A stretch of 64,000 bases of DNA from Thermoplasmata archaeon (GTDB taxonomy: Archaea > Thermoplasmatota > Thermoplasmata > GCA-020350865): NCBI GenBank assembly GCA_020348445.1, contig CP070751.1, positions 125,906-189,905 on the forward strand, read 5' to 3'. The notes beneath the pieces are model-generated. The model saw nothing but the letters and a program-made list of their open reading frames with translations, was not told where the DNA came from and did not search any database. The position numbers were made by a program, and so were the translations under genes. Below, in pieces: positions 24,895 through 28,531 of the stretch. Position 1 is the stretch's first letter. Every line of letters starts with the position of its first letter.

Positions 24895-25113
24895 ATGGCA
24901 GAAGAGAATCTAAGGGAGCTAGATATGAGAGTATATCAGTACATAAAGCTCAACGATTTCGAGACTAACAAATGGTCCACATCTGAGGCAGCTAAATCTT
25001 TGGGTGTTGACGAGAGTGAGATATACGAATCGCTGGCCAATTTATCGAAGCACATGAAGGACAAGGTTTGGATATATTATAAGGACGGTGGGTTGAGGAT
25101 CGCGGCGGAGTGA
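24895..25113 (+). CDS. Small helix-turn-helix-like hypothetical protein
   Basis: TTTATAAT box upstream. STSEAAKSLGVDESEIYESLANL resembles an HTH. Ends 6 nt before tRNA-iMet. Confidence 0.7.
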   Translation: MAEENLRELDMRVYQYIKLNDFETNKWSTSEAAKSLGVDESEIYESLANLSKHMKDKVWIYYKDGGLRIAAE

Positions 25114-25119
25114 TCTTGT

Positions 25120-25247
25120 AGCGGGGTGGGGTAGCCAGGAAATCCCGAGGCATCTACCATAACCTCTTCGTATCATGCCTTGAGGCCTGATATCCCGACG
25201 GGCTCATAACCCGTAGATCGATAGTTCAAATCTATCCCCCGCTACCA
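25120..25247 (+). tRNA. tRNA-Met(CAT), initiator, with a 50-nt D-loop intron and encoded CCA
   Basis: Spliced form: acceptor AGCGGGG/CCCCGCT (A1-U72), D arm GGGT-AGCCAGGAAA-TCCC, anticodon stem ACGGG/CCCGT with three G-C pairs, loop CTCATAA (CAT at 25205-25207), T arm GATAG-TTCAAAT-CTATC, then ACCA. Confidence 0.93.
25142..25191 (+). other. Non-canonical tRNA intron (position about 20a/21) with a relaxed bulge-helix-bulge motif
   Basis: Central helix CAGG 25136-39 / CCTG 25186-89, bulges AAA and ATA, inner helix 25143-53 / 25175-85 (10 of 11 pairs). Cutting after the second nucleotide of each bulge restores GGAAATCCCG. Confidence 0.85.
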
Positions 25248-25366
25248 ATTATTTATTTCTTATAATCATCCTGTTTCTAATGAAATGTTGTTGGAAGACA
25301 AAATAATTTCTTAAACTTTGAAGGGATGAAAGGCAATTTTAAATCACCCATATTCTCCTTTCATCC

Positions 25367-25433
25367 GAGTGCGAAGTTATAATTAGACGTCGAATGGTTC
25401 TTAAGCTTCGCACTCCCCCGCTACTATAATCAT
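25367..25433 (+). repeat. tRNA-3'-end-fused hairpin element M1
   Basis: GAGTGCGAAG / CTTCGCACTC arms, 29-nt spacer TTATAATT...GGTTCTTAAG, then a copy of the tRNA-iMet 3' end TCCCCCGCTA and CTATAATCAT. Confidence 0.8.
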
Positions 25434-25450
25434 TATATAATTAGAATCGC

Positions 25451-25513
25451 AGCGTGTCAGTCGATGTTAAGTTGGTACGTTAGTTGATTCTTAAGCATCG
25501 ACATCCCCCGCTA
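25451..25513 (+). repeat. tRNA-3'-end-fused hairpin element M2
   Basis: GTCGATG (25460-66) / CATCGAC (25496-502) arms, 29-nt spacer TTAAG...GATTCTTAAG, then ATCCCCCGCTA. Confidence 0.8.
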
Positions 25514-25524
25514 TCTTCAATAAT

Positions 25525-25560
25525 TTCTTAAGATTCACGATCCTCCTCTACTATAATCAT
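25525..25560 (+). repeat. Degenerate right half of the hairpin element (M3)
   Basis: TTCTTAAG, 8 nt, TCCTCCTCTA, CTATAATCAT. Same spacing as M1 but with no left arm. Confidence 0.6.
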
Positions 25561-28320: not shown

Positions 28321-28438
28321 GTCGCACATTTGCTATGTAGCAATGTGTGATAATCGCAAATGTGTCCTACCGTGGCAGGCAAGCTGCCACTTAGTCGCAT
28401 AATTGCTATGCGATAATATGATATAATCGCAATTATGC
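28321..28438. promoter_or_regulatory. Two related inverted repeats (10-bp arms, 22-nt spacers) plus an intervening hairpin upstream of tRNA-Glu
   Basis: GCACATTTGC 28324-33 / GCAAATGTGT 28356-65; GCATAATTGC 28397-406 / GCAATTATGC 28429-38; GTGGCAG-GCAAG-CTGCCAC 28372-90. Confidence 0.6.
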
Positions 28439-28531
28439 TCCCGTAGTGTAGCCCGGCCAATCATTTTGGCCTCTCGCGGTCTTTTCGGCTGGAGAAAGCC
28501 AAGGACACGGGTTCAAATCCCGTCGGGAGCA
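28437..28531 (+). tRNA. tRNA-Glu(CTC) with a 20-nt canonical 37/38 intron (28477-28496); CCA not encoded
   Basis: Acceptor GCTCCCG/CGGGAGC, anticodon stem TTGGC/GCCAA, CTC at 28473-75, T arm ACGGG-TTCAAAT-CCCGT. BHB: CTCT/GGAG helix with CGC and AAA bulges and inner stem GGTC/GGCT. Confidence 0.92.

What the first reader, a model, noticed from the sequence alone, without database searches (positions are those of the whole stretch)
25120..25247. Initiator tRNA-Met interrupted by a non-canonical D-loop intron with a relaxed BHB motif
Seen: a 50-nt insert (25142-25191) splits the D-loop. It forms a perfect 4-bp central helix (CAGG/CCTG), two 3-nt bulge positions (AAA, ATA) and an inner helix with 10 of 11 pairs. 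Standard cleavage after the second nucleotide of each bulge restores a normal initiator tRNA. There is no outer helix directly beside the 3' site, so the motif is relaxed. The intron's first 6 nt (ATCCCG) duplicate the first 6 nt of exon 2. Established: non-canonical intron positions and relaxed motifs are typical of lineages with broad-specificity (alpha-beta)2 or epsilon2 endonucleases, such as Thermoproteota and ARMAN. Most euryarchaeal-type homodimeric or homotetrameric EndA enzymes handle canonical 37/38 BHB introns. Inference: this Thermoplasmatota-like organism may have an EndA with broadened specificity or may have recently gained the intron. Standard tRNA finders could miss or mis-call this gene.
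Basis: partly seen in the sequence, partly recalled or inferred. Interest (0 to 1): 0.72.

Follow-up and report, generated by a model that had tools for sequence, protein, structure and literature searches.

The report
Initiator tRNA gene with D-loop intron
This is the archaeon's only detectable start-codon (initiator) tRNA gene, split by a 50-base protein-spliced intron in an unusual place; over a hundred related Thermoplasmata species have an intron at the same site, although their single splicing enzyme lacks the loops said to be needed for such introns.

Summary
Window 25120-25247 (+) is an archaeal initiator tRNA-Met gene split by a 50-nt insert (25142-25191) just 5' of A21 in the D-loop. 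The insert forms a relaxed HBh' splice motif: 4-bp helix CAGG/CCUG, 3-nt bulge AAA, 10/11-bp inner helix, and a 3' site in an internal loop with no adjacent outer helix.

Removing the insert gives a sequence identical (75/75) to the intron-less gene at the same locus in a congener. That gene scores 60.8 bits as tRNA.

The intron is not recent. It is present in 4 of 5 species of the genus, in at least 119 species genomes, and in 8 of 35 families sampled in the class. Covariation keeps the splice motif: 93% of cells paired against 79% when shuffled.

No other archaeal initiator tRNA was found, including in a closed genome of the genus. A second "fMet" tRNA lies on a bacterial contaminant contig.

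Each genome checked has one two-unit (alpha'2-like) EndA without the CSL/ASL loops. The closest PDB match is the loop-less Methanopyrus kandleri enzyme, whose host has a D-loop HBh' intron at 20b/21.

No RNA data exist, so splicing is inferred. Earlier notes of this scan report similar non-canonical tRNA introns in this and other Thermoplasmata genomes.

The parts
25120..25141 (+). Exon 1 of initiator tRNA-Met: positions 1 to 20a (acceptor 5' strand, D-stem 5' strand, D-loop up to A20a).
   Evidence: Sequence. Identical to the first 22 nt of the intron-less G004 gene.
25142..25191 (+). 50-nt BHB-type intron at 20a/21, immediately 5' of A21. Single copy in the genome.
   Evidence: Homologous 48-nt and 30-nt introns in G001-G003. 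No other copy in G000. Logan contigs of two DNA runs cover exon 1, intron and exon 2 without a difference.
25192..25247 (+). Exon 2: A21 to the encoded CCA end. It holds the D-stem 3' strand, the anticodon arm with CAU and three G:C pairs (29-31:39-41), the T arm, and the acceptor 3' strand (A1:U72).
25136..25139 (+). 5' strand of the central 4-bp helix H (C17 A17a G18 G19). It pairs with 25186-25189.
   Evidence: 98.8% of cells paired in 105 distinct relatives, with a C:G to U:A double change.
25186..25189 (+). 3' strand of the central helix H (CCUG), intronic.
25140..25142 (+). 5' bulge AAA. Inferred cut between 25141 and 25142.
   Evidence: AAA in 101 of 105 distinct sequences. The cutting rule was checked on tRNA-Glu in this window.
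25190..25192 (+). 3' splice-site nucleotides AUA. Inferred cut between 25191 and 25192. They lie in an internal loop, not a clean bulge.
   Evidence: AAA 98, AUA 4, AGA 3 of 105. Positions 14-16 cannot form a helix with 22-24.
25143..25185 (+). Intron hairpin h': stem 25143-25153 with 25175-25185 (10 of 11 pairs) and a 21-nt apical part.
   Evidence: In relatives, all of the first 8 pairs show changes on both sides and 90.4% of cells are paired.
24895..25113 (+). Conserved 72-aa ORF that ends 6 nt before the tRNA. The tRNA promoter must lie inside it, or the two are co-transcribed (not tested).

Best explanation
This is the functional, probably sole, initiator tRNA-Met gene of a sediment Thermoplasmata archaeon. 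It carries an old, lineage-typical protein-spliced intron between positions 20a and 21 of the D-loop.

Proposed mechanism:
1. In the precursor, the intron's last nucleotides (CCUG) pair with D-loop nucleotides C17-A17a-G18-G19 to form the 4-bp central helix.
2. On the 5' side a 3-nt bulge (AAA) and the intron hairpin complete a proper bulge-helix unit. The 3' site lies in an internal loop next to the D stem. This is an HBh' motif.
3. The genome's single two-unit splicing endonuclease (EndA, 362 aa) cuts after the second nucleotide on each side.
4. RtcB joins the exons and releases G18-G19 for the tRNA elbow.

Shown here: the gene, the motif, its conservation and covariation, identity of the predicted product with an intron-less orthologue, one EndA gene and one RtcB gene.

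Inferred: that splicing happens, the exact cut sites, and that EndA makes both cuts unaided.
For: - Removing 25142-25191 gives a sequence identical (75/75) to the intron-less gene at the syntenic locus in congener G004. ARAGORN calls that gene tRNA-Met(CAT), and Rfam scores it 60.8 bits.
- The product has initiator features readable in the sequence: A1:U72, G29-31:C39-41, CAU.
- Homologous introns are present in G001 (closed 3.2-Mb genome), G002 and G003.
- In an even sample of the class, 75 of 401 genomes carry it, in 8 of 35 families. Three of the 75 (G097, G301, G211) are unpublished genomes; the conclusion does not depend on them.
- Covariation on 105 distinct sequences: 93.2% of cells paired against 79.2% in shuffles (0 of 500 reach it). 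Nine of 12 pairs have changes on both sides. Slid controls reach at most 46%.
- No second archaeal initiator tRNA in G000, and only one match in the closed G001 genome.
- The other CAU tRNA is of bacterial initiator type, on a 9-kb contig with a sigma-54 activator.
- One EndA gene with two full units in G000, G001-G004 and six other families that carry the intron. The catalytic Tyr/His/Lys align with M. jannaschii EndA.
- RtcB is present.
- tRNA-Val(UAC) of the same genome has an intron at the same 20a/21 site with the same layout (parsed by hand).
Against: - There is no RNA evidence: no RNA run holds this DNA.
- The 3' site lacks the adjacent outer helix. In published assays an alpha'2 enzyme (A. 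fulgidus) did not remove the comparable M. kandleri D-loop HBh' intron, and the loop-less M. kandleri enzyme did so only in traces (PMC5829648).
- The EndA here lacks the CSL/L1 and ASL/L2 inserts and the ARMAN-type insert between the catalytic Tyr and His.
- G000 is an 82%-complete, contaminated bin, so absence of a second gene in G000 alone is weak. The closed G001 genome carries most of that argument.
Confidence: 0.85

Rival explanations
1. Disrupted pseudo-tRNA: an insertion has inactivated the gene, and initiation relies on another initiator tRNA.
For: Standard finders do not call the gene. A second CAU tRNA with an initiator-like anticodon stem exists in the bin. The bin is incomplete.
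Against: - That second tRNA is bacterial in type (C1xU72, A11:U24) and lies on a contig with a sigma-54 enhancer-binding protein.
- The closed genome G001 has only the interrupted gene.
- The exons are perfectly conserved while the insert evolves with compensatory changes that keep the splice motif.
- More than 100 species keep the insert.
Confidence: 0.03
2. The insert is not spliced by EndA. It either stays as an expanded D-loop or is removed by another nuclease.
For: The motif is relaxed at the 3' site. The EndA lacks all known broad-specificity loops. Loop-less and alpha'2 enzymes perform poorly on a similar substrate in vitro (PMC5829648).
Against: - The conserved geometry is exactly that of an EndA substrate: a 3-nt bulge, a 4-bp helix and a helix directly after the bulge. 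All are kept by covariation.
- The insert sequesters G18-G19, which a working tRNA needs.
- Insert length varies from 27 to 50 nt with no conserved apical sequence.
Confidence: 0.04
3. EndA cuts the clean 5' bulge by itself but needs help at the 3' site: an accessory protein, the folded tRNA body, or a modification.
For: [quoted passage not shown] The 3' loop nucleotides (A14, G15, Y16 and A, A/U, A21) are nearly invariant across families. This could reflect a recognised structure as well as tRNA function.
Against: Nothing here points to a specific helper. Only one gene with EndA domains is found in the closed genome. The invariant nucleotides are mostly exon positions that are conserved in all tRNAs anyway.
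Confidence: 0.15
4. Recent gain in this organism by insertion with target-site duplication. The ATCCCGA repeat would be the footprint.
For: A 7-nt direct repeat lies at the intron start and the exon 2 start. Congener G004 lacks the intron at the same locus. The sister family in the same order (G005) lacks it.
Against: - G001-G003 carry homologous introns without the perfect repeat. The intron therefore predates the species, and the repeat arose from a single C-to-U difference.
- The five species are about equally distant (71-76% identity in the upstream flank, unresolved tree), so a precise loss in G004 is at least as likely as a gain.
- The same site is occupied in 7 other families.
- The intron has no other copy in the genome.
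Confidence: 0.05

Closest known systems
Methanopyrus kandleri pre-tRNA-Glu(UUC): relaxed HBh' intron at 20b/21 in the D-loop, processed by a loop-less EndA (Kaneta et al. 2018, PMC5829648; PDB 5X89)
   Same: - The intron lies in the D-loop immediately 5' of A21.
- The motif class is HBh', with the clean bulge on the 5' side.
- The host is a euryarchaeon.
- The host EndA lacks the CSL/ASL loops.
- The G000 EndA's best PDB match is this very enzyme, as its fused beta-alpha construct (E = 4.8e-39, residues 10-353).
   Different: - Here the gene is the initiator tRNA.
- The intron is conserved in over 100 species rather than being a single case.
- The enzyme is one polypeptide with two units, not two subunits.
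- The organism is a mesophilic sediment archaeon.
- Splicing here has not been shown; in M. kandleri the mature tRNA was seen by RNA-seq.
Non-canonical and multiple tRNA introns of Thermoproteales/Crenarchaeota with (alpha-beta)2 EndA carrying the Crenarchaea-specific loop (PMC3241643, PMC4090602)
   Same: BHB-type introns outside 37/38, relaxed HBh'/hBH motifs, and several introns per gene. Relatives of this archaeon have two or three introns in the initiator tRNA gene.
   Different: That enzyme has two subunits and carries the CSL with its conserved lysine. Here there is a single two-unit gene, and the roughly 10-residue CSL is absent in alignment to A. pernix 3P1Z_B and S. tokodaii 2CV8.
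ARMAN-2 (Candidatus Micrarchaeum) epsilon2 EndA and its non-canonical introns (PMC3239211, PMC3488258)
   Same: A lineage outside the TACK group with non-canonical introns and a single-gene EndA.
   Different: Epsilon2 has three units and the ASL loop. Here there are two units, and the ARMAN inserts are absent in the alignment to 4FZ2. The ARMAN introns studied sit in the T-loop (59/60).
Euryarchaeal alpha'2 EndA (Archaeoglobus fulgidus 1RLV/2GJW, Thermoplasma acidophilum 2OHC)
   Same: One polypeptide with two tandem units, only the C-terminal one catalytic, expected to form a homodimer.
   Different: - The protein here is longer (362 aa against 289-305). Both units are full-length, each with a strong Pfam N-domain and C-domain match.
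- T. acidophilum EndA aligns only over the last 85 residues.
- The literature describes alpha'2 enzymes as strict for canonical hBHBh' introns (PMC3239211, PMC5829648).

Membership tests
Archaeal initiator tRNA-Met | CAU anticodon, with three consecutive G:C pairs (29-31:39-41) closing the anticodon stem | tested here: met
   Exon 2 reads ACGGGCUCAUAACCCGU.
Archaeal initiator tRNA-Met | A1:U72 pair at the top of the acceptor stem (archaeal/eukaryal initiator type) | tested here: met
   The 5' end is AGCGGGG and the 3' end is CCCCGCU-A-CCA. The contaminant tRNA instead has C1xU72 and A11:U24, the bacterial type.
Archaeal initiator tRNA-Met | The spliced product folds as a standard cloverleaf tRNA | tested here: met
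   The product is identical (75/75) to G004's uninterrupted gene. That gene is called tRNA-Met(CAT) by ARAGORN and scores 60.8 bits with Rfam RF00005.
Archaeal initiator tRNA-Met | Used for initiation (aminoacylated, bound by aIF2) | not testable with these tools
   This needs biochemistry.
Strict hBHBh' splice motif | Two 3-nt bulges on opposite strands separated by a 4-bp helix | tested here: inconclusive
   The 4-bp helix and the 5' bulge are present. The three 3' nucleotides (AUA) are unpaired, but they face unpaired A14-G15-C16, which makes an internal loop rather than a bulge.
Strict hBHBh' splice motif | Outer helix h directly adjoining the 3' bulge and the central helix | tested here: not met
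   Position 16 against 22 is Y.U, 15 against 23 is G:C, and 14 against 24 is A.C, in all 105 sequences.
Relaxed HBh' splice motif (non-canonical archaeal tRNA intron) | One intact bulge flanked by the central 4-bp helix H and an inner helix h', with the other bulge disrupted | tested here: met
   H is 98.8% paired and h' is 90.4% paired, with double changes at all 8 counted pairs.
Relaxed HBh' splice motif (non-canonical archaeal tRNA intron) | Excision at the motif restores the mature tRNA exactly | tested here: met
Relaxed HBh' splice motif (non-canonical archaeal tRNA intron) | Actually cleaved by EndA and ligated in vivo | not testable with these tools
   No RNA run is listed for this DNA. 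This needs tRNA-seq or an in vitro assay.
EndA alpha'2 type (of the host, outside the window: G000 548,0xx-549,1xx, minus strand) | A single gene encoding two tandem endonuclease units | tested here: met
   One 362-aa ORF with two PF02778 and two PF01974 matches. One such gene also in the closed genome G001 and in 10 other genomes.
EndA (alpha-beta)2 type | Separate catalytic alpha and structural beta genes | tested here: not met
   No second gene with an EndA domain at E <= 1 in G000 or G001.
EndA epsilon2 type | Three units in one polypeptide | tested here: not met
   Only two units are present. The alignment to 4FZ2 covers two of its parts.
Broad-specificity EndA as defined in the literature | Specific loop with a conserved lysine in the catalytic unit: CSL/L1 or ASL/L2, or the L3 insert | tested here: not met
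   The C-unit is colinear with M. jannaschii 1A79. There are gaps of about 10 residues against A. pernix 3P1Z_B and S. tokodaii 2CV8 at the CSL, and gaps against the ARMAN-2 4FZ2 inserts. No indel separates intron-bearing from intron-free families that have the two-unit enzyme.

The most novel reading that the evidence does not exclude
A large radiation of Thermoplasmata routinely splices relaxed, non-canonical tRNA introns, including one in the sole initiator tRNA. It does so with a single two-unit EndA that has none of the loops (CSL, ASL, L3) currently held to be required. Broad substrate specificity would then have arisen by a third, unrecognised route. One candidate is the conserved Lys-rich PRGGxPxKxPSK loop of the non-catalytic unit. 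Another is recognition of the tRNA body. If so, the rule 'euryarchaeal alpha'2/alpha4 EndA means only canonical introns' fails for a whole class.
Probability: 0.5. Interest if true: 0.72.

Novelty: new member of a known kind. Interest (0 to 1): 0.55.

Why it matters
Every protein made by this organism depends on removing this intron, so the relaxed D-loop motif must be a good in vivo substrate. The published model links intron diversity to enzyme architecture and specific loops. Under that model, (alpha-beta)2 and epsilon2 enzymes with CSL/ASL cut relaxed motifs, while alpha4 and alpha'2 enzymes are strict. The model does not predict the case found here.

The intron is conserved, shows covariation and has a defined site in more than 100 species. 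Each genome checked has a single 360-aa enzyme. Together these give a clean, testable substrate-enzyme pair for asking what really sets EndA specificity.

There is also a practical consequence. Annotation pipelines will report these genomes as lacking an initiator tRNA, which distorts tRNA-based completeness checks of MAGs.

Tried and rejected
- RNA evidence: the look-up of sequencing runs listed no RNA holder, only six DNA sediment-metagenome runs. Expression and splicing could not be examined.
- Read laying on two DNA runs (probably the source samples, so not independent) showed only that contigs cover exon 1, intron and exon 2 without differences.
- Second initiator tRNA: regex and BLAST searches of G000 found only the bacterial-type tRNA on contig 266. 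It was rejected as contamination.
- Mobile intron: BLAST of the 50-nt intron against the genome found no other copy.
- C/D-box guide RNA in the intron: there is no C box. The relatives' 28-nt introns are too short.
- Rooting gain against loss within the genus: a tree of the 760-nt upstream flank was unresolved, with star-like branching and 34/13 support.
- EndA indel that correlates with the intron: none was found among 15 EndAs.
- Literature: four full-text searches found no paper that describes D-loop introns in Thermoplasmata or in initiator tRNA. The library holds open-access papers and preprints only, so this is not proof of absence.
- tRNAscan-SE and SPLITS were not available.
- Structure prediction of EndA was not run.

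Full report
**The sequence**

Window 25120-25247 (+) reads as an archaeal initiator tRNA-Met with a 50-nt insert.
- Exon 1 (25120-25141) ends ...GGGUAGCCAGGAA.
- The insert runs from 25142 to 25191.
- Exon 2 (25192-25247) starts AUCCCGACGGGCUCAUAACCCG and ends with an encoded CCA.
- The joined exons have A1:U72, three G:C pairs closing the anticodon stem, a CAU anticodon and a normal D-loop (AGCCAGGAAA).
- The insert therefore lies between A20a and A21.

ARAGORN in default mode does not report the gene. With introns allowed it calls a tRNA-Gly(ACC) at exactly these bounds. Rfam's tRNA model reaches only 28.7 bits, below its 29-bit cut-off, by mis-using intron bases as an acceptor strand.

**The splice motif**

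The precursor folds far better than shuffled sequence: -50.1 kcal/mol, z = -4.35, 0 of 200 shuffles as good.
- D-loop bases C17-A17a-G18-G19 (25136-25139) pair with the intron's CCUG (25186-25189).
- Three A's follow on the 5' strand (25140-25142).
- The intron hairpin then starts at once: 25143-25153 with 25175-25185, 10 of 11 pairs.
- After CCUG come A-U-A (25190-25192) and then the D-stem 3' strand.
- Opposite them, A14-G15-C16 cannot form a helix with U22-C23-C24.
- The 3' site therefore sits in an internal loop.

In the nomenclature used in PMC5829648 and PMC3239211 this is an HBh' motif.

Cutting after the second nucleotide on each side is the rule I verified on the canonical-intron tRNA-Glu(CUC) at 28437-28531. 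Applied here, it gives a 75-nt product.

The terminal direct repeat is 7 nt (ATCCCGA), so eight deletion registers give the same product.

**Is it a live gene?**

The strongest single result comes from a congener. G004 has, at the syntenic locus (72-79% identical flanks), an uninterrupted gene identical base for base to the predicted spliced product (75/75). ARAGORN calls that gene tRNA-Met(CAT), and Rfam scores it 60.8 bits.

Three other congeners carry homologous D-loop introns:
- 48 nt in G001.
- 48 nt in G002, plus a canonical 37/38 intron.
- 30 nt in G003.

Their exons are identical to those of G000.

G001 is a closed 3.2-Mb genome. By sequence identity of the locus it appears to be CP070739.1, 'Methanomassiliicoccales archaeon bin396'. 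It has only this one match to the initiator tRNA.

In G000 the only other candidate is a tRNA nearly identical to bacterial tRNA-fMet (C1xU72, A11:U24). It lies 3 nt from the end of a 9.2-kb contig that encodes a sigma-54-dependent activator. This is bacterial contamination of the bin.

G000 itself is a bin of 354 contigs, 82% complete and 3.8% contaminated.

**How widespread is it?**

I ran one pattern scan of species-representative genomes. It asked for 22-52 extra bases between G18-G19 and AUCCC of an initiator tRNA.
- Almost all are labelled Thermoplasmata MAGs from soil, peat and sediment.
- A few are labelled Methanomassiliicoccales or Lutacidiplasmatales.
- One contig is evidently mis-binned and labelled Acidobacteriaceae.

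Insert lengths run from 27 to 50 nt. The commonest is 28 nt, and G000's is the longest.

In an even sample of the class, 75 of 401 genomes matched, in 13 of 105 genera and 8 of 35 families:

| Family | Genomes with the intron |
|---|---|
| f1 | 3/4 |
| f9 | 3/13 |
| f11 | 47/59 |
| f20 | 5/6 |
| f21 | 2/2 |
| f22 | 10/11 |
| f23 | 2/2 |
| f25 | 2/33 |

Three of the 75 genomes (G097, G301, G211) are unpublished.

Some relatives have two or three introns in this gene: D-loop plus 59/60, or D-loop plus 37/38 plus T-loop.

**Covariation**

On 105 distinct sequences (alignment A1) I counted the 12 pairs of the central helix and of the first 8 bp of the intron hairpin.
- 93.2% of cells are paired, against 79.2% in shuffles (0 of 500 reach it). 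The slid controls reach at most 46%.
- Nine pairs show changes on both sides.
- The central helix switches C:G to U:A together with the exon base.
- The 5' bulge is AAA in 101 of 105 sequences.
- The 3' trio is AAA (98), AUA (4, this genus) or AGA (3).

The apical part of the intron is not conserved. This is the signature of selection on the splice motif, not on an intron product. The intron has no other copy in G000.

**History**

'Recently gained' is not supported. The intron predates the split of four species whose flanks are only 71-76% identical. The perfect 7-nt repeat exists only in G000, where it comes from one C-to-U difference relative to G001.

Is G004's intron-less state a precise loss or the ancestral state? 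I could not settle this, because the flank tree is a star. The only other family sampled in the order (G005) lacks the D-loop intron but has a 37/38 intron. Loss in G004 is my preferred reading, by inference.

**The enzyme**

G000 has one EndA gene (locus L150:1459-2547, minus strand, 362 aa), outside the window on a 112-kb contig.
- It has two full units. Each has a Pfam N-domain and C-domain match over cut-off.
- Its best PDB match is 5X89, the fused beta-alpha construct of M. kandleri EndA (E = 4.8e-39 over residues 10-353).
- The catalytic C-unit is colinear with M. jannaschii EndA.
- It shows gaps where A. pernix and S. tokodaii carry the Crenarchaea-specific loop, and where ARMAN-2 carries its inserts.

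One such gene, and no other EndA-domain gene, is found in each of the following:
- the closed G001 genome;
- G002-G004;
- six further families that carry the intron.

Families without the iMet D-loop intron fall into two groups. Some have the same two-unit enzyme (f4, f6, f16). Others have a shorter T. acidophilum-like one (f14, f18).

An alignment of 15 EndAs shows no indel that separates intron-bearing from intron-free lineages.

RtcB ligase is present.

**Comparison with the literature**

PMC4090602, PMC3239211 and PMC5829648 state two things. First, Euryarchaeota with alpha4 or alpha'2 enzymes have single canonical introns. Second, only (alpha-beta)2 and epsilon2 enzymes with a specific loop cut relaxed motifs.

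The one published close parallel is M. kandleri pre-tRNA-Glu(UUC), which has an HBh' intron at 20b/21. In vitro, A. pernix EndA removed it. A. fulgidus alpha'2 EndA did not visibly do so. The loop-less M. kandleri enzyme did so only in traces, although mature tRNA exists in vivo (PMC5829648, section 12).

The present case matches that one in site, motif class and loop-less enzyme. It differs in that the gene is essential and single-copy, and the intron is kept across a large radiation.

tRNA-Val(UAC) of G000 has an intron at the same 20a/21 site with the same layout (parsed by hand), so the initiator tRNA is not an isolated case. Earlier notes of this scan report further multi-intron tRNA genes in this genome and similar findings in other Thermoplasmata genomes. 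I used them as leads only.

**Verdict**

- This is a real, functional, intron-containing initiator tRNA gene (confidence 0.85).
- As an object it is a new member of a known kind: the HBh' non-canonical archaeal tRNA intron.
- The more interesting implication is that a plain-looking two-unit EndA without known specificity loops handles relaxed motifs throughout a euryarchaeal class. This is well motivated but needs RNA and enzyme data.

Noticed in passing
window 25246-25550: Downstream of the gene there are three further copies of its last 11 nt. ATCCCCCGCTA lies at 25234-25244 in the gene, with copies at 25413-25423, 25503-25513 and a degenerate one at 25540-25550. Each copy is preceded by a hairpin and the motif TTCTTAAGC..AC. 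The same small element, always ending in a copy of the neighbouring tRNA's 3' end, follows tRNA-Glu (about window 28600) and several other tRNA genes of G000 (near 368940, 668187, 3315332, 3933502).
   Followed up: partly
G000 2403626-2412826 (contig 266, outside the window): A bacterial contaminant contig in the bin. It holds a sigma-54-dependent activator, an aminotransferase and a bacterial-type tRNA-fMet (C1xU72, A11:U24) at its very end. An automatic count could mistake this tRNA for the archaeon's initiator tRNA.
   Followed up: yes
G000 4640570-4643566 (contig 347, outside the window): A dense array of about 29 tRNA genes within 3 kb. Several have introns and some have odd anticodon loops. 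It may belong to a virus or mobile element.
   Followed up: no
window 28437-28531: tRNA-Glu(CUC) with a canonical strict hBHBh' intron of about 20 nt at 37/38. ARAGORN mis-calls it (anticodon 'ctcg', or Ser(aga) in intron mode).
   Followed up: yes
G000 2191956-2192084 (outside the window): tRNA-Val(UAC) with two introns. One is a 22-nt intron at the same 20a/21 D-loop site: helix GGGG/CCUC, bulges UUA and AGA, with hairpin GCGGG/CCUGC.
   Followed up: partly
L041, L067, L078, L102, L108, L123, L134, L003 (relatives' initiator tRNA genes): Initiator tRNA genes of other Thermoplasmata carry two or three introns: D-loop plus T-loop 59/60, D-loop plus 37/38, or all three in L134.
   Followed up: partly
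L026 1372-1500 (genome G036): A fragment that repeats exon 1 of the initiator tRNA, then about 100 unrelated nucleotides and an anticodon-loop piece. It lies just upstream of the real gene and may be a remnant of a rearrangement or integration.
   Followed up: no
L150 (G000 EndA), residues about 118-132 of the 362-aa protein: The non-catalytic N-unit has a Lys-rich loop, PRGGKPSKNPSK, conserved in most of the two-unit Thermoplasmata EndAs aligned (degenerate in f6). It is about 5 residues longer than in M. kandleri beta. It is a candidate RNA-contact element and has not been tested.
   Followed up: partly
window 24895-25113: A conserved 72-aa ORF ends 6 nt before the tRNA in all five species of the genus. 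The tRNA promoter would lie inside its coding sequence (a TATA-like ATATATTATAA sits 36-46 nt upstream), or the two are co-transcribed.
   Followed up: partly
L061 (JASIAO010000353.1): A 3-kb contig filed under an Acidobacteriaceae MAG carries an archaeal initiator tRNA with the D-loop intron. It is a mis-binned archaeal contig.
   Followed up: no
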